Origin: an uncultured Bacillales bacterium
GTDB lineage: Bacteria > Bacillota_I > Bacilli_A > RFN20 > CAG-826
Length of the DNA stretch: 64,000 nucleotides
NCBI GenBank assembly: GCA_946612115.1
Contig: CAMOEI010000005.1
Location: forward strand, 23,462 to 87,461
Direction: 5' to 3'
Within the stretch, counting starts at the first letter, position 1. Each line of letters begins with the position of its first letter. Below are positions 4,115 to 60,552 of this stretch, one piece after another. The translations under genes and the position numbers were made by a program. The notes beneath the pieces were generated by a model. That model was not told the DNA's origin, made no database searches, and saw only the letters and a program-made list of their open reading frames with translations.

Positions 4115-4295
4115 ATTTTCGCCTCGCATCAAAATGATATCATATTTTTGCCATATTCTCAATATTTTTGCCAATATTTCCTTTTTATTTTTGACAAAAA
4201 TCTATCATGTTAAATCAATGAAGAGTCAAATCACAATAAAAAGTAACTAAAATAGAAAAAATCCCTGACATCAAATCAGGGATTAGAAACGATTC

Positions 4296-16027: not shown

Positions 16028-16561
16028 CTATGCGTAATAGGTAATTGTCATTGAAACTGGTTTGACTTGGCCAACACTGGCTGTGAAAACAAGTGAAGTC
16101 TCTTGTCCATCCCAAGTTCCGTTTTTGCCAGAAGAAGTGTATGTTCCAGTTGATGCTGTCCATCCATCAGGACCGCCTTTTGATCCAGCATTATTTGCAC
16201 AAGTTAAATCAATATGAGTAATTGTTGCTCCGGTAATTGTGAATGTTTGATCTTTGTAAACCCTTACTTCGTTGTTATTGTCATAATGATAAAACGCACC
16301 ATTCCAAGTAAATGTTAAAGCGCCGACTGTTTTAGTAAAATCTTTCGGTCCGGCTTCTGTTGTAGTACCGAATTGAGAAATAACTTCAACAGTTGTAGGT
16401 GTTCCAGAAGGGGTTCCGCCTCCACCGCCAGATCCACCACCGGATCCACCGCCAGATCCACTACCGGATCCTCCGCCGGATGCTGCTCCACCTTTACTAG
16501 CACAAGCAGCCAATGATAAAAGCATTAAAGCTCCAATAGATAAAAATCTAATCTTTTTCAT
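16028..16561 (-). CDS. Small lipoprotein (lipobox LAAC) with GGGSGSGSGGGSGGGSGGGGG linker
   Basis: 177-aa ORF; signal peptide + lipobox + Gly/Ser linker. Confidence 0.55.
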   Translation of the reverse strand: MKKIRFLSIGALMLLSLAACASKGGAASGGGSGSGSGGGSGGGSGGGGGTPSGTPTTVEVISQFGTTTEAGPKDFTKTVGALTFTWNGAFYHYDNNNEVRVYKDQTFTITGATITHIDLTCANNAGSKGGPDGWTASTGTYTSSGKNGTWDGQETSLVFTASVGQVKPVSMTITYYA

Positions 16562-16698: not shown

Positions 16699-17223
16699 TT
16701 ACTCTTCTGCAGCAGCAATATCGATGATTTCAACTTCGATATTAACTACAATCGCTTCGTCTTGGGCGTCATTAATTGCGAAATATTCAAGCGCTAAGTA
16801 CTCAGTACCTTTAAGTTGAATACCATAAACAGCACCATATGCTGGAATTGTGTGAGCTTGGTCGAACCAATATGCAGAAGGACAAGAAAGCATAACCATG
16901 TTGTATTTTTCTTTTAAGGCATCAAACAGACCTGCTTTTTCATCTGTTCCATGCATTAAATAGAATACATCGGTGTAGTTATCAGTAACTCCGTCATCCC
17001 ATCCAAGGATAAGTTGAGAAGCAACAGCCTTGCTCTCATCTTCTTCATCATATTCGAATTCAGTATATTCATAAGCAACTTGAAGTCCGAAGACTGCTGC
17101 TCCTGCTTCATACGCTAATTCTTGAACAGATGGTGCTTTGACTTTTGCACTGTTTGTTGATTTACATCCCACTAAGCCTACCATCGAAGCAAATGTGACG
17201 AGTGTTAACAATCCTTTTTTCAT
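16699..17223 (-). CDS. Lipoprotein (lipobox LVGC), acidic, function unknown
   Basis: 174-aa ORF with signal peptide + lipobox. Confidence 0.5.
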   Translation of the reverse strand: MKKGLLTLVTFASMVGLVGCKSTNSAKVKAPSVQELAYEAGAAVFGLQVAYEYTEFEYDEEDESKAVASQLILGWDDGVTDNYTDVFYLMHGTDEKAGLFDALKEKYNMVMLSCPSAYWFDQAHTIPAYGAVYGIQLKGTEYLALEYFAINDAQDEAIVVNIEVEIIDIAAAEE

Positions 17224-23234: not shown

Positions 23235-24404
23235 TTATTCTTCTAAAAGCTTTTTAATTTCGTTAACTTTGTCGAGTCTTTCCCAAGGTAGACTAACATC
23301 TGGTCGTCCAAAGTGACCATAGTTAGAGATATCTTGATATCTAAATGAAGGTGTCTTTAAACCAAAGTTTTTAATAATCATTCCGGGTCTACAATCAAAA
23401 ACAGTCTTGATGATGTGAAGTAACTTATCATCGCTATATTTAGAGCTATTAAAAGTATCGATGGCGATACTAATTGGATAATTAATTCCAATGGCGTAAC
23501 TAAGTTGAACTTCCACTCTTTCACTTGCGCCAGCGGCCACTAAGTTTTTAGCGATATATCTAGCCATATACGTTCCTGAGCGATCAACTTTAGAAGGATC
23601 TTTTCCTGAGAAAGCTCCTCCACCGTGATGAGCGCTGCCTCCATAAGTATCGACAATAATTTTTCTTCCAGTTAATCCAGTATCTCCAGCAGGTCCACCT
23701 AAAACAAATCTTCCAGTTGGATTGACTAAATATTTAAAATCATCGTTAAATCCGTACTTTTTTGCGATTTTTTTCATGATTTTTTCATGGATATATTCTT
23801 TGAATTTATCTAAATCAACATCCTCGTCGTGTTGAACTGACATCAAGATTGTATCTAGTTTTGGATTAGCTTTATCGGAATAATCAATCGTGACTTGAGC
23901 CTTCATATCTGGTCGAGCACCTTTAAAGACTCCACTTTTTCTTTGATTGGTGGCTTCTCTAACTAGATTATGCGCAATTGAAATTGGTAAAGGCATATAT
24001 CCTTCAGTTTCATTAGTAGCGTAGCCAAACATCATACCTTGGTCTCCCGCTCCTTGATCTTCTGGATTAGTTTGATTCACTCCTTGATTGATGTCCCCTG
24101 ATTGTTGTTGAATTTTATTAACGATTTGAATCGTGTGATAATCACAGCCATATTCAGGTTTATCATAACCAATCTCTTTTAAAACATTTCTAACAATTGG
24201 TTCGATGTCAATCTTGCCTTTGCAGGTGATTTCTCCTCCCACTAAAACATAGTTTGTGGTTGCAAAACATTCGCAGGCCACATGACTATTTGGATCGACT
24301 TTTAAACACGCGTCTAAAACCGCGTCACTAATTTGATCGCAGACTTTGTCTGGATGTCCTTCACTTACGGACTCTGATGTAAATAAGATTTTTTCTTTTG
24401 CCAT
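23235..24404 (-). CDS. metK: S-adenosylmethionine synthetase
   Basis: FTSESVSEGHPDKVCDQISDAVLDA, GGGAFSGKD motifs. Confidence 0.9.
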   Translation of the reverse strand: MAKEKILFTSESVSEGHPDKVCDQISDAVLDACLKVDPNSHVACECFATTNYVLVGGEITCKGKIDIEPIVRNVLKEIGYDKPEYGCDYHTIQIVNKIQQQSGDINQGVNQTNPEDQGAGDQGMMFGYATNETEGYMPLPISIAHNLVREATNQRKSGVFKGARPDMKAQVTIDYSDKANPKLDTILMSVQHDEDVDLDKFKEYIHEKIMKKIAKKYGFNDDFKYLVNPTGRFVLGGPAGDTGLTGRKIIVDTYGGSAHHGGGAFSGKDPSKVDRSGTYMARYIAKNLVAAGASERVEVQLSYAIGINYPISIAIDTFNSSKYSDDKLLHIIKTVFDCRPGMIIKNFGLKTPSFRYQDISNYGHFGRPDVSLPWERLDKVNEIKKLLEE

Positions 24405-24612
24405 AACTTTATTCCTATAAAAAACTTCCCCCAGAATTGGGAGAAGCTAATATATTCTTCTCGTCTTATCGTTCAAGGTTCTGGGGCCTTGCTAAGGAAG
24501 AGCACTTACTCTTTCGAGAGTTGCTACTGTGTTTTTACATTCCTTATTACACAGTTCTGGATAAGTGTGTTTATTATAAATAAATGATTTAGTAATATCA
24601 AGAGGATAAATT
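24405..24612 (-). promoter_or_regulatory. metK leader. Sigma-A-like promoter (TTGATA-17-TATAAT), ~150-nt structured leader with a P1-like pairing CUUAUC…GAUAAG, an antiterminator (CCCCAGAA) and an intrinsic terminator (CTTCTCCCaattcTGGGGGAAG+T6) ending 12 nt before the SD. Riboswitch-like attenuator, class unassigned.
   Basis: Hairpins read directly on the minus strand. No GGAGGGA / GGCAACC SAM-I core motifs found. Confidence 0.5.
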
Positions 24613-26927: not shown

Positions 26928-28085
26928 TTATAGAAGTAGGGGCTTCTTGCTCGATGACTCTAATGAGCCAAGCATAAACAAGCTATCCGGATGTGTCCCA
27001 TCCTTAGTAAGCATTTCAATTCCCTTACGTAGAATATTTTTAGCTGCGTTTATATCTCGATCATGGACTGAGCCACATTGAGGGCATGTCCATTTTCTTA
27101 CTCTTAAATCTTTAGTGAGAGGATTTTGATAATTGCAGTAACTACATAATTGACTACTTGGATAATTAGTAGGAACCTTAACAATAACGTTCCCATACCA
27201 ATTAGCCTTATAAATAAGCATAGAAACAAATTTAGACCAACTCGCATCAGAAATGCTTCTAGCGAGTTTAGTGTTTCTAGTCATATTTTTTACTTTCAGG
27301 TCTTCAATACAAATGATTTGGTTTTCATCAATGATAATTCGAGAAAGTTTATGTAAATAGTCATTACGTTGATTCTCTATTTTCTTATGAATTCTAGCAA
27401 CTTTAATTCTTTGCTTGTTACGGTTATTACTACCCTTTTTCATAAGAGATAGTTTTCTTTGTTCTCTAGCGAGTTTATTTTGTGATTTGGTTAAGTATTT
27501 ATGGTTTTTATATTTATTCCCGTTAGAGTCAATAATTAGCTCTTTAATCCCTAAGTCTAATCCAATCGCATTATCTAAAAATTTAATAGATTCAGAATTC
27601 TCCTCAACAAGCAAAGAAATATAATACTTCTCATCCGTAGTCTTACTAACAGTTACAGATTTAATTTCACCTATAAAGTCACGATGCTTCTTTATTCTAA
27701 TACGAGGACATTTAGGAATAGATATATATCGGTCGTTAGAGGAGAACTTCACACTTCCCTGGTTATTTGTGGTATAGCTTTGATCATTCCTTTTAGATTT
27801 ATATTCAGGAAAACCATTTTGCTTTTTATAAAACGATTTAAAAGCCGCGTTTCTTGCTAATTGTGCGTTACATAAGGCTAAAGAATCAACATCTTTTAAA
27901 AATGGATAATCCTTTTTATATCTAGCGGGAGTGATATTTTCATTTTTACCAGTAGATTTATATATCTCACACATATCTGAAAGAGACTTATTATAGAAAA
28001 ACCTTACACATCCAAAAACTCTAGAGAAGTATTCCTTCTGACTAGCGTTAGGATAGATGCGATATTTATAAGCTTTTCTAATCAT
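26928..28085 (-). CDS. tnpB: IS605 OrfB/TnpB (RuvC-like nuclease + C-terminal Zn finger CSYC…CPQCG); RNA-guided (OMEGA) nuclease family
   Basis: MIRKAYKYRIYPN… N-terminus; GLDLGIKE RuvC-I; CxxC…CxxC near the C-terminus. Confidence 0.85.
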   Translation of the reverse strand: MIRKAYKYRIYPNASQKEYFSRVFGCVRFFYNKSLSDMCEIYKSTGKNENITPARYKKDYPFLKDVDSLALCNAQLARNAAFKSFYKKQNGFPEYKSKRNDQSYTTNNQGSVKFSSNDRYISIPKCPRIRIKKHRDFIGEIKSVTVSKTTDEKYYISLLVEENSESIKFLDNAIGLDLGIKELIIDSNGNKYKNHKYLTKSQNKLAREQRKLSLMKKGSNNRNKQRIKVARIHKKIENQRNDYLHKLSRIIIDENQIICIEDLKVKNMTRNTKLARSISDASWSKFVSMLIYKANWYGNVIVKVPTNYPSSQLCSYCNYQNPLTKDLRVRKWTCPQCGSVHDRDINAAKNILRKGIEMLTKDGTHPDSLFMLGSLESSSKKPLLL

Positions 28086-28117
28086 AAACCTCCTAATTCA
28101 AGGAGTTAGATTAGTTA

Positions 28118-28513
28118 TCATTCTCCCTGAGATTCGATATATTCCTTGATTGTCTCAATATTAGCCACACCTATAGAGATAAGACAGAAAGACTGAGACC
28201 AGAATGCTTCTTTATATAATCTAGATCTAATAGAAGGAAATTCTTTCTTTATTAGTCTAGAAGAAGCAGACTTATAAGCATTGATGAACTTAGAGATATT
28301 AGAATTTGGTTCACTTCTAAATAAAATGTGAACACGATCCAAATCATGGTTCCATTCTTCAAGAGCAATATTATAATTACCCTCAATATTCCTAAATATC
28401 CCTTTTAACCTTTCAGATATTTCATCATTTATCACCTTTTTACGATATTTAACTACCAAGATTAGATGAAAATGAATCGCGAATACTGAATGGTTATTAC
28501 TCCTCAATTCCAC
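28118..28513 (-). CDS. tnpA: IS200/IS605 Y1 (HUH) transposase TnpA
   Basis: HFHLIL (HuH) motif and a Tyr-containing helix near the C-terminus (RLYKEAFWSQS); 131 aa. Confidence 0.85.
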   Translation of the reverse strand: MELRSNNHSVFAIHFHLILVVKYRKKVINDEISERLKGIFRNIEGNYNIALEEWNHDLDRVHILFRSEPNSNISKFINAYKSASSRLIKKEFPSIRSRLYKEAFWSQSFCLISIGVANIETIKEYIESQGE

Positions 28514-45514: not shown

Positions 45515-46267
45515 ATGAGAATTTTTGCAAATATTGTCACTTTATTTGTTATCGGATCACTATTTGGTTGGATTCTTGAAGTGTTCTTTAGGCGTTTCTT
45601 TTCTCAAAAAAGATGGATGAATCCAGGCTTTTTACAAGGTCCTTATCTTCCTATTTATGGGTTTGGAGTCTTGGGAATGTATGGATTAAGCGAAATCTTT
45701 AAAATCATCACCGCGAGTTGGACGATTCCAAACTGGATTTCTATTATCATTCAAATCTTAGTTATTGGAATTTCTTTAATCGTTATCGAATTCATCGCCG
45801 GACTTATTTTTATAAAAGGAATGGGTCTTAAGCTCTGGGACTATTCTGATAGATGGGGAAATACGATGGGCATTATCTGTCCATTATTCGATGTCTTATG
45901 GACCGCGGCAGGAGCGATTTATTATTTCTTTATCCATCCTTATCTTAAAGAAGGTATCGAGTGGCTCGCTTTAGAATCACATAATGTCTATTACCTTCTT
46001 ATTGGAATTGTTCTCGGTATGATGTTAGTGGACACCGCTTACTCAGTCCACTTAGCGACAAGGTTATCGAAGTTCGCTAAGGAAAACAAAGTTGTTCTTT
46101 CTTTGAAAGATTTACAACTTAAGGTCAAGGAAGCAAGAGACGATTTTAAAGAGAAACATCACTTCTATATCACCCCTAGTGATTTGAAGAGATTTATCGA
46201 CTCTAAGATAAGCAACTTAAAGGATCAAGAGAAGAAACCTTCTTCACCAGAAATAGAGAAGAAATAA
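45515..46267 (+). CDS. Polytopic membrane protein (DUF1113 / putative ABC-transporter type IV-like) with Lys-rich tail
   Basis: Hydrophobic profile. 3' end overlaps the convergent ABC/FtsX gene by ~65 nt. Confidence 0.4.
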   Translation: MRIFANIVTLFVIGSLFGWILEVFFRRFFSQKRWMNPGFLQGPYLPIYGFGVLGMYGLSEIFKIITASWTIPNWISIIIQILVIGISLIVIEFIAGLIFIKGMGLKLWDYSDRWGNTMGIICPLFDVLWTAAGAIYYFFIHPYLKEGIEWLALESHNVYYLLIGIVLGMMLVDTAYSVHLATRLSKFAKENKVVLSLKDLQLKVKEARDDFKEKHHFYITPSDLKRFIDSKISNLKDQEKKPSSPEIEKK

Positions 46268-48995
46268 CACTAATCAGTAGCGATAATCCAAGCATTAAAA
46301 ATAAGGAGATTGGATTAAACACAAACATTGATTCGATATATAGAGCCTTTGCCAAAGCTTTTGATAAGATAAAAGCCACAAGTAAAAGTTCTATACTAGA
46401 TAAGATAAAAGCTATCAAAGTCATGACAATAGAATGAGAAAAAATAAACTTATAGCTTTCAAACTTACTAACACCAAGGCATCGGATTAAACCGATGTCT
46501 TTTTTTGTCTCAATAAAATGAAGATAGTTACAAATAAATAAGATGAGTGAGGCAATAACTACACTAGCAATAGAGCAAATAAGCATGATTGTTTCGATAT
46601 AACCACATATTGTGAGAACACTACTTTTCACATCGTTTAATGGTGAAGAAAATTTATAATCCGGAAAAGCTTTTTCTAATAGTTTAATCACTGCTATCTC
46701 TTTATCTTTATCAATTTGTAGAGCGATATTTTCAACACTCAAATCAAAAGTCGATATTCCTAGCGAACATTGAAAAAACAAAATCGACCATTCTTCATTA
46801 TGTGATAGGGAATATCTTCCGCTATCAGAAACACCCACTATTTTCAAAGGGACATTGACGAAATCTCTAGATAAATATCCTTTTGGATTTAAATCTTCTC
46901 TAACTGGGAAAGAAAAATAGATAGTTTGATTAATTGAATTATCCATACCTAATTTTTTTAATAAAGAATTAGATACCACTATTTCTTGATAATTAATAGG
47001 TTTCCTGCCGGCCACTAATTTATAGTTAGGCTCAAATGTCAATCCTTCAGTTTTTGTTTTAGTGAAATGACCTTCCACCATGTTTTTAGGTAGGGTTATA
47101 TTGTTTGAGTCTTCATATTTGATATAACTCATTAAATCAACGATGTCATCTATGTCATTTAAACTCTTAGACAAGAAGGTGTGCCTAGCAAATCCACTCA
47201 TCAAACTTTGATCATATATGGCGTATCCATTAGATGAACCATATATAACGGATTTAACATTTTTTGAAACTTTTGGGGCATTTTTGCCGATAAATGATGG
47301 AGTTATGTCCTTATTTTCTCTATTAATTGGTATCACTCTATTACATTCGAAAGTATCTTTATGCTCACATCTAGTTTGATAATATTTCTTGTCCAAAATT
47401 TCATAATCAATTTCGATACTTGAGAATTTATTTTCAATTAAAAATTCATCTCTATTTTCACTAAATTCAAGATAATAACATTTCTTTAAATCCCACGGGT
47501 TAGCAGTGTTTTGGTTGATAATGTTTGTTGTTGGTAAACTCATTACATCTTCAAAGATGAATTCGTTCCACAATCTGTCAGTTTGATATATCAAATTAGT
47601 GCTAGATAAAATAAAACCAACAATATTGATTTCAAATTCAACCGCATAGCTCCATCTATCGTTTGCAAATTCAAATATCGTAGTGACAAAGTCATTCTCT
47701 TCAATATATTTGCTTAAGGAATCAATGGTTCTTGGAATTTGAAGTTGATAACATAACTCACTAATTTGAAGCATTGATAAAGAAATCACTACTTCGTTTG
47801 GATAAAGCTCTATTGGCCTAGATGGATAGATGTCTCCTCTATATTCATCTAGCATTTCAAATTCGTTAATCGAACTAGCGGACAAATTACAAAAGCTTTT
47901 CTTATAACCAGTTCTTTTTAGATAAATAGAGTTAAATGTTGGGAAGAAATTATCTAAGTTATTGAAATAAAACACTCCAATATCAGATATATTTTCATAT
48001 CGATTCTTGTAATCAAACGCATCAAGATAATTAATTGAAGTCACTGTATCTTTTTTGATATTAGGATTTTCATTTGAAACAATGATTTTATCATCGTCTA
48101 AAATAGAGGAATAACTCCTATATAAATTCGAAGAAACGACTTCACTTAATAAACCCGCTAAACCAATTCCGACTAAGCCTAAAGAAGTTGCCATAATTGA
48201 AAATAGATTTCTCCACTTTCGTTGTTTTATTGAATTAAATGTATGTGATAAAAGAAATCCAAACGGAAGTTTTTGTTTATCATTCCTATAAGAGAGTCTA
48301 ATCAAAGGTAAAACTGTTTCCTTCTTTTCTTTTTCTATTAATTTATTAGAAATGATTTCTCCATCTTTCATTTCCACGATTTGAGTTCCATATTCTTTGG
48401 CGATTGATGGGTCGTGAGTCACCATAATGACCAATGATTTTTTACTAATTTTATTTAATATCTCCATGACAATTTTGGAGTTAGCCTCATCTAAATTACC
48501 GGTTGGCTCATCCGCTAAAATAATTTTAGGTGAGTTTGCTAACGCTCTAGCGATCGCGACTCTTTGTTTTTCTCCACCACTAAGATTTTGAACTAATTGA
48601 TTTTTGTATTCCGATAGACCGACAAGTTTTAATAAATCATCCACTCTTCTTTCTTTTCGAGAATTTAAATCGATAGAGGATATATCCATTGCCAATAGAA
48701 TATTTTTCCTAACAGATTCAAATTCAAAAAGTTTAAAGTCTTGAAAAATAAAGCCGATCTTTTGATTCCGAATCATGTCTTTTTCTTTATTAGACATTTT
48801 TGAATATCTTTTGCCGTCTAAAAGTATTTCTCCATCAAATGGTAATAAAGAAGAAATAACATTTAATAATGTGGTTTTACCACATCCAGATGGTCCTTTA
48901 ATGATAACTAGCCCTGTTCTTTGAAAAGATATAGAGACATTATTTAATGCAAGTTCGTTATTAAATCTTTTAGTGACATTTTTAATTTCAATCAT
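46203..48995 (-). CDS. Fused ABC ATPase + large extracytoplasmic domain + FtsX-like permease (MacB-like), paralogue 2
   Basis: Walker A GPSGCGKTT, signature LSGGEKQRVAIARAL, C-terminal 4-TM FtsX-type region; 930 aa. Confidence 0.7.
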   Translation of the reverse strand: MIEIKNVTKRFNNELALNNVSISFQRTGLVIIKGPSGCGKTTLLNVISSLLPFDGEILLDGKRYSKMSNKEKDMIRNQKIGFIFQDFKLFEFESVRKNILLAMDISSIDLNSRKERRVDDLLKLVGLSEYKNQLVQNLSGGEKQRVAIARALANSPKIILADEPTGNLDEANSKIVMEILNKISKKSLVIMVTHDPSIAKEYGTQIVEMKDGEIISNKLIEKEKKETVLPLIRLSYRNDKQKLPFGFLLSHTFNSIKQRKWRNLFSIMATSLGLVGIGLAGLLSEVVSSNLYRSYSSILDDDKIIVSNENPNIKKDTVTSINYLDAFDYKNRYENISDIGVFYFNNLDNFFPTFNSIYLKRTGYKKSFCNLSASSINEFEMLDEYRGDIYPSRPIELYPNEVVISLSMLQISELCYQLQIPRTIDSLSKYIEENDFVTTIFEFANDRWSYAVEFEINIVGFILSSTNLIYQTDRLWNEFIFEDVMSLPTTNIINQNTANPWDLKKCYYLEFSENRDEFLIENKFSSIEIDYEILDKKYYQTRCEHKDTFECNRVIPINRENKDITPSFIGKNAPKVSKNVKSVIYGSSNGYAIYDQSLMSGFARHTFLSKSLNDIDDIVDLMSYIKYEDSNNITLPKNMVEGHFTKTKTEGLTFEPNYKLVAGRKPINYQEIVVSNSLLKKLGMDNSINQTIYFSFPVREDLNPKGYLSRDFVNVPLKIVGVSDSGRYSLSHNEEWSILFFQCSLGISTFDLSVENIALQIDKDKEIAVIKLLEKAFPDYKFSSPLNDVKSSVLTICGYIETIMLICSIASVVIASLILFICNYLHFIETKKDIGLIRCLGVSKFESYKFIFSHSIVMTLIAFILSSIELLLVAFILSKALAKALYIESMFVFNPISLFLMLGLSLLISVISSLFLVKKVSSLDPLSCLS

Positions 48996-51088
48996 AAGCT
49001 TTGTAACTCCTCTTTAACGTTTTTAAATTTTGAAAACAAGATTGGAATAGAAGTCGCTAAAAAGACCACAATAACCACAAAAAGCAATAAAAGGATTGGG
49101 AATATGAACTTAATTCCAAAAAGCGAGATAAAAGGAATCTGTATTAAATTAGATAACTCAATGTTTTTATGAATGATTAGATTGATAATCTTTTCTAGCA
49201 ATATGCTGAAAACAATTGAAAGCACTAACGAAATTAATCCGTTAATAAAAGACTCACCGAGATAAATATCTAAAATGTCTTTATCTCTTGAACCCAGAAA
49301 AGTTAATATCGCACTAGTTTTTCGATCTTCTGAATAACTAACAAAGGACATTATTCCTAAAATTAATACTGACCCGACAAAAGAAATAATTGTAAACAAG
49401 ATTATTCCATATTCCGCAACATCGACAAAGTCTTTTAAGGAATTAGTAAGCAATAAACTTTCAGAAGAAAAAGAAAGCGAATTCCCAAAATCTATATCCT
49501 TTACAAGAGTGTCTCTAAACCTATAGTCTTTTAAAAATAAATTATAGGAATAAGAGGTAATAATAGAGATATCAGGAGAATTAATTACGTAGTCAAACCA
49601 TGAGATATCATAGCCGTTGTAGGTTGATAGATTAAACATAATAGAACTATGAAAATAATCCTCTAACGCTAAGTGGGAGAAATATATTTTCTCGCTAGAA
49701 AGATAATTGAGTTCTTTAACAACTCCAACAATTCTTACCGACTGTTCAAAGTTAAAAATGTCAGTGATATATTCTTCATCCTCAGTCACATAATTATTGG
49801 TAAATTTGCTCTTGATAGTTAGATATTCACCAACCGGTTCTTTACCTATCTTCTTTTTAATCAACTCCTTTGCGAATTGATTGATTACCACTTCTTTTAA
49901 TGAGTCAGCTTTAGGAATATATCCATCTATTATTAATGAGCTATCGACATAATCATTTTTAAAAGAATAAATCGGTTTATAATCTAATTCATTGATTGGT
50001 TGTTCATCGTAACAAATAGTCAAATTTTGATAAAGAATTGTCGAGAAATTAGGACAAATCTCGAATAAATTGGTAATTTTTTTATTATTCCTCAACTCAT
50101 TAATTGTTGGTCTAATTGACTTAGTTAAATTTAGCATCCCTGTGCCAGACACTTTTTCTTCCTTGCTAATCGAGCCACTACCATAATTAAACTGCCTGTA
50201 GCAGGTATTTGAGATAGATTTATCTTTTCCATTTATAAATCCAGACACCAATATAAACATTGAAAAAGAGATCACTAAACAAAAGGAAGTAAACAGATTT
50301 CTTTTAAATCGCTTTTTAAAATTGGATAAAAAGAAATCTTTGGTCCATTTTGAGTTATTTTTAGAAATTGAAGACGGTTCTATATCAATTTCTTTAAGCT
50401 TATGTCGACCATCAATTTTAGTTACTTCACCATTAGATAAATAAATAATTTTATCCGAATATTCTTTAACTAAAAGTAGGTTGTGTGATACCAGGATTAC
50501 TAATCTTTCCTTACTAATACCCTTTAATATATCCATAACTTTTATAGAATTAGATATATCAAGGTGTCCAGTTGGTTCATCGCATAATAAAATCTTAGGT
50601 TTTGAAACGATTGCTCGAGCAATTCCTACTCTTTGCTGTTCACCTCCTGATAGTTCACTAGTTAATTTAGAAAATTGGTCTACTTTAATTCCAACTTTAT
50701 CTAGAGCCTTAATGGCGAGTTCTTCTGCTTTATTCTTTTTTATCCCTTTTATTAATAATGGAAGAGTGACGTTATATAAAACAGTCTTCTCTTGTATCAG
50801 ATTAAAGTTTTGAAAAACAATGCCAATTTCATTTTGATAAAAAGATGGTTTTTCTTTTCTCTTAAATGAAGAATAACTCCTTCCCATATAATAGAGTTCT
50901 CCTTCACTTGGCGAATCTAACATTGCAATTAGATTTAAAAGTGTTGATTTACCGCTTCCACTTTTGCCGACAATCGACACTAATCCATTATTCGGAAAAT
51001 CTAGATTAATGTTCTTTAAAGCGTAGAATTTCTTTTTGTTTTTTGTTTGATAGATTTTTGAGACATTTGAGATTTTTAAGGTATTCAA
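48992..51088 (-). CDS. Fused ABC ATPase + extracytoplasmic domain + FtsX-like permease (MacB-like), paralogue 1; probable TTG start
   Basis: Walker A GKSGSGKSTL, signature LSGGEQQRVGIARAI; SD AAAGGGGGA 8 nt before the TTG; overlaps the downstream paralogue by 4 nt. Confidence 0.65.
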   Translation of the reverse strand: MNTLKISNVSKIYQTKNKKKFYALKNINLDFPNNGLVSIVGKSGSGKSTLLNLIAMLDSPSEGELYYMGRSYSSFKRKEKPSFYQNEIGIVFQNFNLIQEKTVLYNVTLPLLIKGIKKNKAEELAIKALDKVGIKVDQFSKLTSELSGGEQQRVGIARAIVSKPKILLCDEPTGHLDISNSIKVMDILKGISKERLVILVSHNLLLVKEYSDKIIYLSNGEVTKIDGRHKLKEIDIEPSSISKNNSKWTKDFFLSNFKKRFKRNLFTSFCLVISFSMFILVSGFINGKDKSISNTCYRQFNYGSGSISKEEKVSGTGMLNLTKSIRPTINELRNNKKITNLFEICPNFSTILYQNLTICYDEQPINELDYKPIYSFKNDYVDSSLIIDGYIPKADSLKEVVINQFAKELIKKKIGKEPVGEYLTIKSKFTNNYVTEDEEYITDIFNFEQSVRIVGVVKELNYLSSEKIYFSHLALEDYFHSSIMFNLSTYNGYDISWFDYVINSPDISIITSYSYNLFLKDYRFRDTLVKDIDFGNSLSFSSESLLLTNSLKDFVDVAEYGIILFTIISFVGSVLILGIMSFVSYSEDRKTSAILTFLGSRDKDILDIYLGESFINGLISLVLSIVFSILLEKIINLIIHKNIELSNLIQIPFISLFGIKFIFPILLLLFVVIVVFLATSIPILFSKFKNVKEELQSL

Positions 51089-51093
51089 AATAA

Positions 51094-51123
51094 AATCCCC
51101 CTTTATTATTTAATAGGGAGATT
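51094..51123 (-). terminator. Hairpin ATCTCCCT-attaaataataa-AGGGGGAT after fhs; also contains the SD of the downstream ABC gene
   Basis: Seen in sequence. Confidence 0.55.
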
Positions 51124-51160
51124 TTTCGGAATTTTTAAAAAATTTCTTAAACTTTTTTTA
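51104..51160. repeat. Copy A of a ~55-bp AT-rich repeated intergenic element (core TTTTTCGGAATTTTTAAAAAATTTCTTAAA); contains a GGAATTTTT/AAAAATTTC imperfect palindrome
   Basis: ~90% identical to 59036..59092. Confidence 0.8.
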
Positions 51161-52780
51161 TTTTTCTTGCATTTTGACCGCTGCCGGAACCTTTGGAAGA
51201 CCCGGCATAGTCATAATCGAACCAGTTAAAGCAACCAAGAATCCAGCACCTGCGGATAATCTAACTTCTCTAATGGTAACCGTGAAATCATCTGGGGCAT
51301 TAAGCACTTTAGCGTTATCAGTAAATGATAACGGTGTTTTAGCAATACATACTGGAAGATCTTTATAACCAAGCTTTTCATACTTTTCTAATTGCTCTAA
51401 AGCAACATCAGTATATTCCACCTTTCCTGCTCGATAGATTTCTTTACAAATAGTTTCGATCTTCTCTTGGTAAGATTTCTTCAAATCGTAAAGTGGATGA
51501 TACTTGCTTTCTTTAGTTTCTAAGGTCTTCATGACAAGTTTAGCAAGCTCCACCGCTCCTTTAGCGCCTTTAGAGAAAGCATCACTATAAGCAACCTCAT
51601 AATTATTTTCTTTGCAGAATTCTTCTAACGCTTTAGTTTCGTTAACTGTATCGCTTTCAAAATGATTAATACAAATAACAACAGGGACATCATATTTCTT
51701 AATGTTTTCTAAGTGACGTTTTAAATTAGCGACACCAATTTTTAAAGCCTCAACATTTTCATTTTCAAGCTCTTCAAATTTCACTCCTCCATGGAGTTTG
51801 AGCGCTCTAATGGTGGCGACCATCACAACTGCATCTGGGTGAAGTCCACCAATTCTAGATTTAATATCTAGAAATTTCTCAGCTCCTAAATCAGCACCGA
51901 ATCCTGCCTCAGTAACAACAATTGGAGTGAGTTTTAAGGCTAATTTTGTGGCGATTAATGAATTACAGCCGTGCGCGATATTAGCGAATGGTCCACCATG
52001 AATGATGCAAGGGTTGCCTTCTAAAGTTTGAACAAGGTTAGGATTTAAAGCAACTCTCATCAATTTATAAATCGCATTAGAGATTCTTAAGTCTTTAATA
52101 GTCACTGGTTTATCATCAAATGTATATGCAACAACAATTCTTTCAACTCTATCGATGAAATCGTCTTTATCTTTTGCTAAACACATTACCGCCATCATTT
52201 CACTAGCGACAGTGATAACAAATTCTTCATGATGCGGAATAGCCTTTTTATCATCTAGATTAATCGTAATGCTTCTTAAAGCGCGGTCATTCATATCAAG
52301 GGCTCTTTTCCAAATAATTTTATTTGGATCGATTCCTAATTCATTTCCTTGATAGATGTGATTATCAATAACTGCGGAAATCAAATTAATCGAACTAGTT
52401 AACGCATGCATATCGCCTGTAAAGTGAAGATTAATTTCTTCACTAGGAATGACTGAAGCTTTTCCTCCACCAGTTGCTCCCCCTTTTAAGCCAAATACTG
52501 GCCCTAAAGATGGCTCTCTAAGGCAAAGAAGGGAGTTAACGCCTATTTCATTAAGTCCATCAGTTAAAGCGATAGAACAAGTTGTTTTGCCTTCTCCTGC
52601 TTTAGTAGGAGTAATCGCTGTTACTAACACTAATTTGCCGTCTTTATGAGACTTGACTTCATCCATTAAGGATAAATCAATTTTTCCTTTGTCTAGTCCA
52701 AATGGAATAACGTATTTCTTGTCGATATTAATGCTTTTTGCAATTTCGTAAATGTCTTTCATATTATTGCTCCTTAACAT
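51158..52780 (-). CDS. fhs: Formate--tetrahydrofolate ligase
   Basis: PTKAGEGKTT P-loop; 540 aa. Confidence 0.9.
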   Translation of the reverse strand: MLRSNNMKDIYEIAKSINIDKKYVIPFGLDKGKIDLSLMDEVKSHKDGKLVLVTAITPTKAGEGKTTCSIALTDGLNEIGVNSLLCLREPSLGPVFGLKGGATGGGKASVIPSEEINLHFTGDMHALTSSINLISAVIDNHIYQGNELGIDPNKIIWKRALDMNDRALRSITINLDDKKAIPHHEEFVITVASEMMAVMCLAKDKDDFIDRVERIVVAYTFDDKPVTIKDLRISNAIYKLMRVALNPNLVQTLEGNPCIIHGGPFANIAHGCNSLIATKLALKLTPIVVTEAGFGADLGAEKFLDIKSRIGGLHPDAVVMVATIRALKLHGGVKFEELENENVEALKIGVANLKRHLENIKKYDVPVVICINHFESDTVNETKALEEFCKENNYEVAYSDAFSKGAKGAVELAKLVMKTLETKESKYHPLYDLKKSYQEKIETICKEIYRAGKVEYTDVALEQLEKYEKLGYKDLPVCIAKTPLSFTDNAKVLNAPDDFTVTIREVRLSAGAGFLVALTGSIMTMPGLPKVPAAVKMQEK

Positions 52781-58004: not shown

Positions 58005-58032
58005 GAAGAAAAAAACTGGAGACAACTCTCCA
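58005..58032 (-). terminator. Terminator CTGGAGA-caac-TCTCCAG + T7 after recA
   Basis: Seen in sequence. Confidence 0.8.
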
Positions 58033-58040
58033 GTAATTTC

Positions 58041-59024
58041 TTAAGCCTTAAGCGCTTCTAGTAATTCTTCTTTTACATCTTCGTTAGAATGAATATATTC
58101 TTTAGCAGCTTCTCTACCTTGAGCGATTTTGCTGCCGTTATATTCAAACCATGCACCACTCTTTTTAATAATGCCTTTTTCAACAGCACGGTCAAGGATT
58201 TCACTTTCCTTAGAAATACCTTGTCCATAGATGATGTCGATTTCGCATTGTTTAAATGGTGGGGAAACTTTGTTCTTGACAACCTTAATTCTACAAGTGT
58301 TTCCAGTAACTTCACTACCAGTCTTAATGGCTTCTGTTCTTCTAATGTCTAATCTAATAGAAGCATAGAATTTTAACGCTCTTCCTCCTGAAGTGGTTTC
58401 AGGATTACCATACATCACACCAACTTTTTCTCTTAATTGGTTAATAAAGATAATTGTGCAGTCGTGCTTATTTAATGTACCAGCGAGTTTTCTCATCGCT
58501 TTGGACATTAATCTAGCTTGTAAACCGACTGAGCTATCACCCATTTCACCATCAAGTTCAGCTTGTGGAACTAAAGCAGCAACGCTATCAACGATGAGAA
58601 GATCAATTCCTCCGCTAGAAGCAAGCATCTCGGTAATTTCAAGAGCCTGTTCTCCACTATCAGGTTGAGAAAGAATTAATTCATCGATATTAACTCCAAG
58701 TTTTTTCGCGTACTCAGGATCAATCGCGTGCTCCGCATCAATAAATGCTGCTGTACCACCAAGTTTTTGACATTCAGCAATCGCGTGAAGAGCTAATGTG
58801 GTTTTACCACTACTTTCAGGGCCAAATATTTCAATAATACGCCCTCTAGGATAACCGCCAACTCCAAGGGCCTCGTCTAAAAGGAGGGATCCAGTTGGAA
58901 TAACGTCGACATCGACATTTGGGCGTTCGCCAAGCTTCATGACGGCGCCTTTTCCATATGTCTTTTGGATTTGTTTTAGAACTTCGTCGAGTTCTTGTTC
59001 ATTGAGTTTTTTGTTTTTTTCCAT
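58041..59024 (-). CDS. recA: Recombinase A
   Basis: GPESSGKTT Walker A, FIDAEHA, L1/L2 loops; 327 aa. Confidence 0.95.
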
Positions 59025-59035
59025 AATTGTGTCCT

Positions 59036-59092
59036 CATTTATTAATAGGGCGTTTTTTCGGAATTTTTAAAAAATTTCTTAAATTATTTTTT
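59036..59092. repeat. Copy B of the ~55-bp AT-rich repeated element, between cinA and recA, ending ~25 nt upstream of the recA ATG
   Basis: Aligned by eye with 51104..51160; core TTTTTCGGAATTTTTAAAAAATTTCTTAAA identical. Confidence 0.8.
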
Positions 59093-59537
59093 CTAAAATT
59101 TCGTAAGCAATATTTATTGCTTGTTTTTGTATCTCTTCTCGAGTTCCTTCTAAGTGATAAGCAAACACTTGGGCTTTATCTTCATAAGCCACTCCGATAT
59201 AAACTTCACCAACTGGTTTACCTTCCATTGCACTAGGTCCAGCATTGCCAGTGAAGGAAACACAGTAATCAACATTTAATAAAGACTTTCCGTGTCCTGC
59301 CATTTGACCAGCAATCTCTTGAGAGACTACTCCATAGGCATCAATATCACTATAAGGAATTCCTAAGATTCTTTGTTTTTCTTCTGTTGCGTATGTTACA
59401 AGTGCACCTTTAAAGAAATGTGACGCTCCACTGACGGAGGTAATTTCACTAGCAAAAAGTCCACCAGTAAAAGATTCAACAGAACCTAATGTTCTTCCTT
59501 TTTCACGAAATAGCTTATTAATTTCTTCTTTTGTCAT
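59079..59537 (-). CDS. cinA: CinA C-terminal-domain protein (PncC-like NMN deamidase), no N-terminal MoCF domain
   Basis: GSVESFTGGLFAS…GALVTYA motif. Start MTKEE 1 nt after the pgsA stop; the ORF-track extension overlaps pgsA. Confidence 0.8.
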   Translation of the reverse strand: MTKEEINKLFREKGRTLGSVESFTGGLFASEITSVSGASHFFKGALVTYATEEKQRILGIPYSDIDAYGVVSQEIAGQMAGHGKSLLNVDYCVSFTGNAGPSAMEGKPVGEVYIGVAYEDKAQVFAYHLEGTREEIQKQAINIAYEILEKII

Positions 59538-59538
59538 A

Positions 59539-60183
59539 TTACTTTTTCTCCGGAAGGAATACTTTCTTATTTTGAATAACATAGATAATACCGCTTATTA
59601 GGCTCACTAACGTAGCCGCATAAACGATAAACATACTAACTGTTAAATATGGATTATTGTTATTTGGATAAATGTAATGGAATGGGAAATCGTTTAATAA
59701 AACCGCTCCAATTGCGACCATTTGTAGGACAGTTTTTAATTTGCCGAAAATATTAGCGGCGATGACCACTCCTTTTTGAGCGGCAATAAATCTAAGGGCA
59801 TCAACCACTGTGTCTCTAGCGACCATGATGATGACACACCAAACTGGGAAAAACACTGATTGTTCATAATTATATGGAGCAAAAAAGGCGGGAGCTGTTA
59901 GGAAAATCGTCATTGTGTTAACTAAAAGTTTATCAGCAACAGGATCTAAAAATTTTCCTAAATCAGTAACCTGATTATTTTTTCTTGCAAGTTTGCCGTC
60001 TAAATGATCGGTATAGGCTGCAACGATAAAAAAGGCAAAGAGAACCAAGAAAATGAGGTTAATTCTAGTGTTGCCTAGTTCAGGAGTTGATAATCCTGGA
60101 ATAACTGATAAAACAAAAAGTGTCACAATAAGAATGACTGTTGCAACAATTCTTGAAAATGTAATTTTTGTCGGTAGATTCAT
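59539..60183 (-). CDS. pgsA: CDP-diacylglycerol--glycerol-3-phosphate 3-phosphatidyltransferase
   Basis: CDP-OH transferase motif DGKLAR…G…DPVADK; SD AAGGAGAATCAAAT-ATG. Confidence 0.85.
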   Translation of the reverse strand: MNLPTKITFSRIVATVILIVTLFVLSVIPGLSTPELGNTRINLIFLVLFAFFIVAAYTDHLDGKLARKNNQVTDLGKFLDPVADKLLVNTMTIFLTAPAFFAPYNYEQSVFFPVWCVIIMVARDTVVDALRFIAAQKGVVIAANIFGKLKTVLQMVAIGAVLLNDFPFHYIYPNNNNPYLTVSMFIVYAATLVSLISGIIYVIQNKKVFLPEKK

Positions 60184-60202: not shown

Positions 60203-60552
60203 GTGAGTCTTCGATCCTGTAAGCCATGTTTTGTCTAGGATGATAATTTATCTAAGATTAACTTACTCGAGTCAATTCGTTTCTTTATCGAGTCTCCCCT
60301 ACCAAACTTGGGTTTCTCACTTACGGGGTTTACCGCGTTCCACCTTACCCTTTCAGATAAGCTCCGTCACTGTGGCACTTTCAGGAACTTTACCATGGAT
60401 TTCTCTTTAGGTTAGTTTCCGCCGTCACGTACTCCTACGTGCCTAGTGTTATTTTTTCCACTAGCGTAATCACTACAGCCATCACAGACTGTGCGAGCAT
60501 GGACTTTCCTCTAACTAACTAGTAGCCAGCAATCATCCAGACCGAAGGTTTA
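60203..60552 (-). ncRNA. rnpB: RNase P RNA, Bacillus type (type B)
   Basis: Minus-strand GAGGAAAGTCCATGCTCGCAC…GAAAGTGCCACAGTGACG…GGAACGCGGTAAACCCC…GAGAAACCCAA…GGTAGGGGA…ACATGGCTTACAG. P1 pairing CTTCGGTCTGG / CAGGATCGAAG. gpsB–rnpB synteny as in B. subtilis. Confidence 0.8.

What the first reader, a model, noticed from the sequence alone, without database searches (positions are those of the whole stretch)
51104..51160. ~55-bp AT-rich repeated element with internal palindrome, upstream of recA and of the ABC/FtsX pump
Two copies (51104-51160 and 59036-59092) are ~90% identical, with core TTTTTCGGAATTTTTAAAAAATTTCTTAAA. Each lies in the short spacer between the stop of one minus-strand gene (fhs; cinA) and the start of the next (ABC pump; recA). 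In both cases it actually covers the upstream gene's stop codon. The core contains the imperfect inverted repeat GGAATTTTT|AAAAATTTC. No canonical Firmicute LexA (Cheo) box GAAC-N4-GTTC occurs upstream of recA. This element is therefore a candidate alternative operator or promoter module co-regulating recA and the pump, or a small dispersed repeat family.
Basis: seen in the sequence. Interest (0 to 1): 0.55.

Follow-up and report, generated by a model that had tools for sequence, protein, structure and literature searches.

The report
Shared promoter-like module before recA and pump
The two AT-rich repeats are copies of a conserved ~50-base control sequence placed before recA, an ABC/FtsX export pump and a few small genes in a group of uncultured gut and rumen Bacilli, which suggests a LexA-independent way of switching recombination genes on.

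Summary
The two copies are 55 nt long and 89% identical, with an exact 30-mer that shuffles never reproduce.

It is not a local duplication. A module of the same layout lies upstream of recA and of the ABC/FtsX pump in about 15-20 related species. The layout is T-run/hexamer, A/T tract around TCGA, C-rich box plus TATT, then a G-rich SD. The variable parts are species-specific but shared by both sites within a genome.

A third copy in the same organism follows an intrinsic terminator and precedes a MuF_C-like ORF. In relatives, a MazF-fold 107-aa gene carries the module at several different loci.

The module matches neither the sigma-A consensus nor a Cheo box. It does not meet the Mycoplasma sigma-20 consensus either. 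It does resemble that system in architecture and in gene set (recA plus an ABC exporter plus small unknown genes).

At the pump only, the C-rich and G-rich boxes form a conserved RNA hairpin followed by a U-run. This looks like a terminator and SD trap with the -10-like box in its loop.

Best reading: a dedicated, non-sigma-A promoter module defining a small recombination regulon. The regulator was not found.

The parts
59033..59084 (-). recA-proximal copy of the module. Gene sense: TTTAAGAAATTTTTTAAAAATTCCGAAAAAACGCCCTATTAATAAATGAGGAC. It overlaps the cinA stop (59079-59081) and ends 8 nt before the recA ATG (59022-59024).
   Evidence: nhmmer hit 59084-59033, E 6e-10. No significant RNA structure: -1.3 kcal/mol, z +0.24.
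51097..51152 (-). Pump-proximal copy of the module. Gene sense: TTTAAGAAATTTTTTAAAAATTCCGAAAAATCTCCCTATTAAATAATAAAGGGGGA. It starts 5 nt after the fhs stop (51158-51160).
   Evidence: nhmmer hits 51152-51100 and 51147-51097.
51089..51125 (-). RNA hairpin plus U-run found only in the pump copy. C-arm AAAAUCUCCCU (51115-51125), 12-nt AT loop holding the -10-like TATTAA, G-arm AGGGGGAUUUU (51092-51102, which is the SD), then a U-rich spacer up to the TTG start (51086-51088).
   Evidence: Inverted repeat, 91% complementary. -12.9 kcal/mol, z -2.4. The equivalent hairpin is present in 19 of 21 species: mean -12.3 kcal/mol, Z -4.6, sense more stable than antisense, many G.U pairs.
51122..51129 (-). 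CCGAAAAA box (TCGA-centred A/T tract) of the pump copy. The equivalent in the recA copy is 59053-59061.
   Evidence: T(C)GA flanked by A or T runs is conserved across the 47 aligned sites.
58041..59024 (-). recA, the gene downstream of copy 2. It is followed by its own intrinsic terminator at 58015-58034.
   Evidence: Pfam RecA 4.8e-138. Terminator scan.
46203..51088 (-). Two tandem fused ABC-ATPase/FtsX-permease genes (MacB/FtsE-type exporter), the operon downstream of copy 1.
   Evidence: Pfam ABC_tran + FtsX. NCBIfam best hits are bacteriocin-export/LolD/FtsE/MacB ATPases, all below cut-off.
51158..52780 (-). fhs (formate-tetrahydrofolate ligase), the upstream gene. Its read-through transcripts would meet the hairpin.
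   Evidence: Pfam FTHFS 3e-236. fhs-to-pump synteny is conserved in 20 loci.
59079..59582 (-). cinA (PncC-domain only), the upstream gene. Its last codons and stop lie inside the module.
   Evidence: Pfam CinA 5.9e-47. NCBIfam PncC domain.

Best explanation
The two repeats are copies of a low-copy cis-regulatory module of about 50 nt. It is conserved across a family-level clade of uncultured gut and rumen Bacilli (MAGs labelled Bacilli or Erysipelotrichaceae).

Anatomy, read in gene sense:
- a T-run
- a species-specific hexamer: TTGGAC, TTGCAA, TTCACA or TTGARC in relatives, degenerated to TTTAAA here
- an A/T tract centred on T(C)GA
- a C-rich box fused to TATT(A/T)A
- an AT-rich stretch
- a G-rich SD-like box

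I read it as a promoter that the housekeeping sigma factor does not recognise well. It would be served by a dedicated factor, most likely a small alternative sigma factor of the sigma-20/ECF-like kind, and less likely an activator.

That factor would co-express recA, a MacB-type ABC/FtsX exporter operon and a few small accessory genes. In this organism the accessory gene is a MuF_C-like ORF. In relatives it is a MazF-fold 107-aa protein. Together these would form a LexA-independent recombination or damage regulon.

At the pump, the C-rich and G-rich boxes are extended into a stable RNA hairpin followed by a U-run. Transcripts reading through from fhs would be terminated there or have their SD trapped. 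Transcripts started from the -10-like box in the loop lack the 5' arm and can be translated.

Shown: the conservation, the specificity, the hairpin and the mismatch to known consensus sequences. Inferred: promoter activity, the transcription start site and the nature of the regulator.
For: (1) The module is at both orthologous sites in many species. In 7 loci the recA-upstream query finds the pump-upstream region as the only other strong match within +/-10 kb.

(2) Both sites change together. Module identity between recA and pump is 0.63 within a genome and 0.50 between genomes. The difference is concentrated in the hexamer and the loop. Examples: L008 has TTGGAC three times, L084 has TTCACA twice, and L086 has TTGAGC/TTGAAC.

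(3) Specificity. The HMM gives no hits at E<0.01 in 1.49 Mb of loci plus the window other than recA, pump and three accessory sites.

(4) It must carry a promoter. The third copy in the same organism starts about 20 nt after an intrinsic terminator, and no sigma-70-like site lies in that region. L003 also has a separate fhs terminator before the module.

(5) It is not sigma-A. Neither copy is flagged by the consensus scan, and none is within 3 mismatches of TTGACA-16/18-TATAAT. Ordinary promoters in the window are canonical: tRNA operon TTGATT-17-TATATT and rny TTTATA-16-TATAAT.

(6) There is no Cheo box.

(7) The MazF-fold ORF107 family carries the module at three different genomic locations in different species.

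(8) There is a precedent. M. genitalium sigma-20 promoters (TTGTCA-N18/19-ATTWAT) lie 7-17 nt from the ATG. They drive recA, ruvAB, an ABC exporter (MG_390) and small unknown genes, and the motif differs even in the sister species M. pneumoniae (PMC4446450; PMC6105099).

(9) The pump hairpin is real and favours the sense strand.
Against: No regulator was found. There is no sigma factor, LexA or obvious dedicated transcription factor in the window.

In this genome the hexamer is only TTTAAA. The best fit to the sigma-20 consensus needs 3 of 12 mismatches, which 733 other places in the window also reach.

The register of the -10 is ambiguous. Candidates are the TATTAA/ATTAAT loop box, the CCTATT box and the CGAAAAA box. 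In a species with 84% nt identity the ATTAAT is replaced by ATAGAT.

The hexamer-to-TATT spacing of 19-21 nt is longer than that of sigma-20.

Whole genomes could not be scanned, so the regulon is known only from about 1.5 Mb of sampled loci.

G.U pairs in the hairpin mean the 5' arm is transcribed at least in read-through RNA. A leader or attenuator reading is therefore not excluded.
Confidence: 0.55

Rival explanations
1. Weak sigma-A (or -10-only) promoter overlapped by an operator for a dedicated repressor or activator. On this reading the conserved TCGA-centred A/T tract or the C-rich/TATT box is a transcription-factor site. The regulon is controlled by a DNA-binding protein rather than by a sigma factor.
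For: TCGA flanked by A/T runs forms perfect palindromes in some copies: AAAAATCGATTTTT at the L004 pump, TTTTCGAAAA at L084 recA, and GATTTTTCGAAAAAATC at L086 recA. A TATAAT-like hexamer always lies in the AT stretch. Everything listed for co-regulation above fits this reading equally well.
Against: The palindromic character is not conserved. AAAAATCGAAAAA in L003 and L006 is asymmetric. The hexamer, loop and arms change between closely related species much faster than a transcription factor's specificity usually does. No -35 lies at 16-18 nt from any -10 candidate. No candidate transcription factor lies near any copy.
Confidence: 0.2
2. The shared part works at the RNA level. It would be a 5' leader or intercistronic element (attenuator, SD-sequestering switch, processing or stability signal) on transcripts that start further upstream, not a promoter.
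For: The pump hairpin plus U-run is strongly conserved, with compensatory and G.U changes, and is more stable on the sense strand. L003 has a weak sigma-70-like site (9 of 12 matches) just upstream of the module. In leaders with a separate SD (L094, L089) the G-box can pair with a downstream C-run.
Against: The recA copies, which share the module, have no significant structure: mean Z -0.35 over n=25, and the window copy has z +0.24. The shared feature is therefore sequence, not fold. There is no Rfam match. In L089 a terminator lies about 20 nt upstream and no promoter precedes the module.
Confidence: 0.12
3. Non-regulatory repeat. It would be a small mobile or recombination-prone sequence (MITE/REP-like, or a promoter-carrying cassette end) kept similar by gene conversion, with the recA/pump association incidental.
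For: The 30-nt exact identity is specific to this lineage. The sister species L086 has only about 70-80% identity between its two copies, which suggests recent homogenisation. ORF107 with its module sits at different loci and mostly on short contigs. L008 has module-ORF107-module-pump.
Against: The position is conserved at recA and the pump across species with only about 73% nt identity. There are only 2 copies in 64 kb and none elsewhere in 1.49 Mb of loci. There are no terminal repeats or target duplications. The 22-mer core is absent from 185,579 reference genomes and from viral contigs.
Confidence: 0.08
4. Divergent SOS box. The module would be the operator of a LexA-like repressor with an unusual recognition sequence.
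For: It sits upstream of recA, and the regulon contains a toxin-fold gene, as SOS regulons often do. No canonical Cheo box exists to do the job.
Against: There is no conserved dyad of LexA type. No lexA gene is in the window or the loci examined. The fast species-specific drift of the motif is unlike LexA boxes.
Confidence: 0.05

Closest known systems
Sigma-20 (MG428)-dependent promoters of Mycoplasma genitalium and M. pneumoniae (Torres-Puig et al. 2015, PMC4446450; 2018, PMC6105099)
   Same: Both are bipartite motifs with an unusually long spacer placed very close to the start codon (7-17 nt there; here 16-20 nt from the ATTAAT/ATTAAA box to the start). Both serve a small regulon containing recA, an ABC exporter and small proteins of unknown function. 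In both, the motif differs between sister species (TTGTCA vs TTGGCR there; TTGGAC, TTGCAA, TTCACA, TTGARC and TTTAAA here). In both lineages recA lacks a LexA box.
   Different: The window copies do not meet the consensus: 3 of 12 mismatches, which is not above chance. Spacing in relatives is 19-21 nt rather than 18-19. The exporter is MacB/FtsX-type, not the SunT-type MG_390. No MG428 homologue could be looked for. The TCGA tract, the C-rich box and the terminator hairpin are not described for sigma-20 promoters.
LexA/Cheo-box (CGAAC-N4-GTTCG) control of recA in Bacillota
   Same: Both are cis-elements immediately upstream of recA that define a small repair regulon.
   Different: There is no GAAC-N4-GTTC in the window or upstream of recA in 80 relatives. 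The module is not a dyad, and it also precedes an exporter.
ComX (sigma-X) cin-box TACGAATA driving cinA-recA in streptococci; sigma-H type promoters
   Same: Both involve the cinA-recA neighbourhood. The CGAA core of the module (TTCCGAAAAA; TTACGAAAAAT in L030) resembles TACGAATA. In both cases an alternative sigma would replace SOS control.
   Different: The only TACGAATA in the window is at 13550, which is unrelated. The module lies between cinA and recA, not upstream of cinA. A sigma-H-like AGGAWWW box is present only in the window subclade. No com genes were seen.
Deviant -10 box GCGAAAAT of Mycoplasma gallisepticum vlhA promoters (Fisunov et al. 2016, PMC5138195)
   Same: Both have a CGAAAA(A)T box in an AT-rich promoter that is proposed to need an unidentified alternative sigma factor.
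   Different: The gene family differs (vlhA phase-variable lipoproteins), that system has an upstream GAA-repeat tract, and there is no evidence of homology.
Intrinsic (Rho-independent) terminators / SD-sequestering hairpins
   Same: The pump copy has a 7-13-bp G+C-rich stem, an AT loop and a run of 5-7 U. The scanner flags the L003 equivalent as a terminator.
   Different: The 3' arm is the SD of the next gene, and the U-run is the SD-to-start spacer. A -10-like box sits in the loop. The recA copy of the module has no hairpin.

Membership tests
Sigma-20 (MG428)-type promoter | Match to TTGTCA-N18/19-ATTWAT (M. genitalium) or TTGGCR-N18/19-ATTYAT (M. pneumoniae) | tested here: not met
   The best fit of the recA copy is TTTAAA-N19-ATTAAT with 3 mismatches; 733 sites in the window do as well. 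The pump copy is worse. Relatives come closer (TTGGAC-N19-ATTAGT in L008, TTGCAA-N20-ATTAAT in L022), but the spacing is often 20-21 nt.
Sigma-20 (MG428)-type promoter | Dependence on an MG428-family sigma factor | not testable with these tools
   Whole genomes of the clade could not be scanned. No sigma gene lies in the window or in the sampled loci.
Sigma-20 (MG428)-type promoter | Regulon of recA and other recombination genes plus an ABC exporter and small unknown ORFs | tested here: inconclusive
   recA, a MacB-type exporter, a MuF_C-like ORF and a MazF-fold ORF carry the module. ruvAB and comEC were not in the sampled DNA.
LexA (Cheo) box | GAAC-N4-GTTC dyad upstream of recA | tested here: not met
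   There are 0 matches in the 64-kb window and none within 130 nt upstream of recA in 80 relatives.
Sigma-A (housekeeping) promoter | TTGACA-16/18-TATAAT with at least 9 of 12 matches | tested here: not met
   Neither copy is listed by the scan. No fit within 3 mismatches overlaps the copies. There are 0 sites around the third copy.
ComX cin-box promoter | TACGAATA box | tested here: not met
   The single occurrence in the window is at 13550 on the minus strand, which is unrelated. The module has TCCGAAAA.
Intrinsic terminator | G+C-rich stem-loop followed by a U-run, conserved by compensatory change | tested here: met
   This holds for the pump copy only: -12.9 kcal/mol, and 19 of 21 species have a hairpin plus T-run with mean Z -4.6. 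The L003 equivalent is flagged by the scanner. For the recA copy it is not met (z +0.24).
MITE/REP-like dispersed repeat | Many copies per genome at non-orthologous intergenic sites, with terminal inverted repeats | tested here: not met
   There are two copies in 64 kb and three known in the organism. Positions are orthologous in about 20 species, and there are no other hits in 1.49 Mb. The full genome was not available.
Known RNA family (Rfam 15) | Covariance-model match | tested here: not met
   There is no hit at gathering threshold. Only chance-level hits (E 0.4-0.75) appear at the pump copy and none at the recA copy.

The most novel reading that the evidence does not exclude
Uncultured Erysipelotrichales-like Bacilli that lack LexA boxes run a small regulon from a fast-evolving, non-sigma-A promoter served by a dedicated alternative sigma factor. 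The regulon comprises recA, a MacB-type exporter, a MazF-fold toxin-like protein and other small genes. This would be the counterpart outside Mycoplasma of the sigma-20 'cell-specific recombination' system. It would add a new design feature: the promoter's -10 box sits in the loop of a terminator whose 3' arm is the SD, so only factor-driven transcripts of the pump are translatable.
Probability: 0.3. Interest if true: 0.65.

Novelty: new variant of a known kind. Interest (0 to 1): 0.45.

Why it matters
How recA and recombination are controlled in bacteria without an SOS system is known experimentally in only a few cases, namely competence sigma factors in streptococci and sigma-20 in Mycoplasma genitalium.

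A conserved, specific module that links recA to an exporter and to toxin-fold genes gives a concrete, testable regulon for a widespread but uncultured gut and rumen lineage. It also gives a sequence handle (an HMM) for finding the remaining regulon members and the regulator.

The promoter-inside-a-terminator arrangement at the pump is a compact way of insulating a gene from upstream transcription. If confirmed, it could be useful as a design principle.

Tried and rejected
- The 22-mer core was scanned in genome contigs (0 hits), in viral contigs (0 hits) and in metagenome contigs (one hit, L002). The organism is not among the reference genomes, so a genome-wide copy count was impossible.
- Extending the source contig failed. 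One end protein is not on record, and the other gave only a 3.5-kb contig.
- Cheo box: absent.
- Sigma-A promoter: not matched.
- Sigma-D/sigma-28 reading (TAAA-N15-GCCGATAA): it fits by eye in the window, but the key CGA is missing in most species and the gene set does not fit, so it was dropped.
- Sigma-H reading (AGGAWWW-N11/12-RNNGAAT): it fits the window subclade (L004 recA has ATCGAAT) but not L003, L084, L008 or L012, so it was dropped as a general model.
- ComK AT-box reading (AAAA-N5-TTTT): present only in the L004 pump copy.
- A shared RNA structure: rejected, because the recA copies do not fold.
- Rfam: nothing.
- Search for RuvB or ComEC genes in the loci, to test further regulon members: none present.
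- The window was annotated nearly completely with Pfam looking for a regulator. Only an unrelated MarR and a Schlafen/HTH protein turned up.

Full report
OBSERVATION. The repeat is real and sits at the stated place. The repeat finder reports 51105-51159 and 59037-59091 as a 55-nt pair with 89% ungapped identity. The 30-mer core occurs exactly twice. No further match appears at up to 3 mismatches, and 100 dinucleotide-preserving shuffles give none.

All the genes concerned are on the minus strand (Pfam). One set is pgsA, cinA, [copy], recA. The other is miaA, fhs, [copy], then two tandem genes that each fuse an ABC ATPase to an FtsX permease. The fhs stop (51158-51160) lies at the edge of the repeat. 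The cinA stop (59079-59081) lies inside the 30-nt core.

The internal inverted repeat exists, but it is mainly the symmetry of a T-run next to an A-run. No GAAC-N4-GTTC occurs anywhere in the window.

ORGANISM AND RELATIVES. RecA places the window in a clade of uncultured gut and rumen MAGs labelled Bacilli or Erysipelotrichaceae. The nearest species representatives have 88-89% RecA identity. The 22-mer core is absent from 185,579 reference genomes and from viral contigs.

L001 is the same species, at 98% nt identity. L083 and L086 are sister species at 84% and 80%. L003, L004, L005 and L084 are at about 73%.

IT IS NOT A LOCAL DUPLICATION. In gene sense the element reads TTTAAG-AAATTTTTT-AAAAATTCCGAAAAA-(A/T)C(G/T)CCCTATTAA..(SD)..start.

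A module with the same layout lies upstream of recA in about 25 related species. It also lies between fhs and the orthologous ABC/FtsX gene in 20. In 7 loci, a search with the recA-upstream sequence finds the pump-upstream region as the only other strong match within +/-10 kb.

The variable parts are species-specific but shared by both sites of a genome:
- L008 has TTGGAC three times.
- L084 has TTCACA twice.
- L003 has TTTGCA/TTTACA.
- L086 has TTGAGC/TTGAAC.
- L007 has the loop TATTCAAATAAT twice.
- L012 has the loop TATTTAATTAAT twice.

Overall, recA and pump modules are 0.63 identical within a genome against 0.50 between genomes. The window species is the extreme at 0.79. Its sister L086 has much less similar copies. 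The exact 30-mer is therefore a lineage-specific homogenisation laid on top of an old, conserved pair.

SPECIFICITY AND FURTHER MEMBERS. An HMM of the module finds nothing else at E<0.01 in the window or in 1.49 Mb of related loci, apart from three accessory sites.

(a) A third copy with the exact 22-mer exists in the same organism (same ENA sample as L001, scaffold_215). It starts about 20 nt after an intrinsic terminator and about 50 nt before the likely start of a 173/188-aa ORF with a sub-threshold MuF_C match.

(b) In L008, a 107-aa ORF with its own module is inserted between fhs and the pump. Homologues of this ORF sit at other loci in other species and again carry the module. The loci are rpiB/DEAD-helicase in L094-96 and exo-endo-phosphatase/thrS in L097-99. 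The family has no Pfam or NCBIfam match. A moderate-confidence model (pLDDT 68) matches only MazF/CcdB/Kid toxins among its top 26 PDB hits. Foldseek probability reaches 0.99, but E-values are weak at 0.03-0.5.

(c) In L006, recA lacks the module. A copy lies instead upstream of a 313-nt non-coding insert before divIVA.

WHAT IT IS NOT. It is not a sigma-A promoter. The consensus scan lists neither copy, and no fit within 3 mismatches overlaps them. Ordinary promoters in the window are canonical.

It is not a LexA site, not a cin-box and not a known RNA family. It is not a shared RNA structure either, because the recA copies do not fold (mean Z -0.35, n=25; window copy z +0.24).

THE PUMP-SPECIFIC HAIRPIN. 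At the pump, the C-rich box and the G-rich SD box are complementary and are followed by a U-run that ends at the start codon. In the window this hairpin is -12.9 kcal/mol and its arms are 91% complementary.

In 19 of 21 species the arms differ in sequence but stay complementary. Examples are TCCCTCT/AGAGGGA, CTCCTA/TAGGAG, CCCCTC/GAGGGG and CCCTCTATA/TATAGGGGG. The mean is -12.3 kcal/mol with Z -4.6. There are many G.U pairs, and the sense strand is more stable than the antisense strand (-12.3 vs -9.1). This is an RNA-level intrinsic-terminator and SD-trap structure. The scanner flags the L003 equivalent as a terminator.

MECHANISM PROPOSED. The module must contain a promoter, because it follows terminators in L089 and L003. 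The -10-like AT box lies in the hairpin loop.

Transcripts started there would lack the 5' arm and have a free SD. Read-through RNA from fhs would be terminated or silenced. In leaders with a separate SD (L089, L094), the G-box can instead pair with a downstream C-run. That fits a start site at or just before the G-box.

Three features point to a dedicated alternative sigma factor: the poor fit to sigma-A, the long spacing of 19-21 nt from hexamer to AT box, and the rapid joint evolution of the hexamer at all sites of a genome.

The closest described system is sigma-20 (MG428) of Mycoplasma genitalium. Its promoter is TTGTCA-N18/19-ATTWAT, 7-17 nt from the ATG. It drives recA, ruvAB, an ABC exporter and small unknown proteins. 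The motif has already changed to TTGGCR in M. pneumoniae (PMC4446450; PMC6105099).

This is an analogy, not a membership. The window copies miss the consensus, and no sigma gene could be sought genome-wide. A transcription-factor operator, an RNA-leader role and a conversion-prone repeat remain as rivals.

LIMITS. No transcription data exist and no complete genome of the clade was accessible. The regulator is unknown and the register of the -10 is ambiguous. In L083 the ATTAAT is ATAGAT. A CGAAAAAT box resembling the deviant -10 of M. gallisepticum vlhA promoters is an alternative (PMC5138195).

VERDICT. This is a genuine, conserved, low-copy regulatory module. It is of moderate interest as a new variant of a known kind, namely a regulon-specific non-housekeeping promoter for recombination genes in a lineage without SOS boxes.

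Noticed in passing
window 26928-28513 (-): An IS200/IS605-type element: a Y1 transposase TnpA (28118-28513) and a TnpB/Cas12f-like OrfB (26928-28085).
   Followed up: no
window 60215-60544 (-): RNase P RNA class B (Rfam 269.8 bits) lies between divIVA and pgsA, that is, inside the divIVA-pgsA-cinA-recA gene string.
   Followed up: no
L006 7728-8040 (+): A 313-nt non-coding insert unique to this relative lies directly downstream of a module copy. It is moderately structured (-78.7 kcal/mol, z -2.1) and has no Rfam match, so it may be a module-driven ncRNA. In L006, recA itself lacks the module.
   Followed up: partly
L008 10596-10640; L093, L094 and L097 just after the ORF107 stop: A conserved element of about 40 nt overlaps the stop of the MazF-fold ORF107: GTGATTCA..AAGACCG..GATCTC..ACGTNCGAATCAC, a long imperfect inverted repeat. 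It is followed by TATTAAACCAAAA and no protein antitoxin gene is adjacent. It could be an RNA antitoxin, a terminator or a recombination site.
   Followed up: partly
window 24405-24500 (-), upstream of metK (23235-24404): The metK leader ends in a terminator-like hairpin (CTTCTCCCAATTCTGGGGGAAG followed by T6). No SAM riboswitch or any credible Rfam family is detected.
   Followed up: partly
window 13533-15881 (-), 16028-16561 (-) and 16699-17223 (-): Three ORFs of 782, 177 and 174 aa have no Pfam match. The first two contain GGSGG-type repeats (CCGCCACC-like DNA repeats at 15745-15792 and 16416-16487).
   Followed up: no
L084 10991-12589; L085 10990-12588: In these relatives a 532-aa phospholipase-D-domain gene is inserted directly after recA, so that recA is no longer followed by its own terminator.
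   Followed up: no
window 2771-4174 (-): A Schlafen AlbA_2 + HATPase_c_4 + winged-helix protein sits next to a PRiA4_ORF3-like protein (2141-2755). This may be a defence or mobile-element island at the window's start.
   Followed up: no
L001 13574-14765; L087 17872-18715: In two assemblies of this species or its sister, the fhs gene (L001) or the N-terminal half of the pump gene (L087) is not called as intact. Scaffold gaps or frameshifts may explain this. It was not checked.
   Followed up: no
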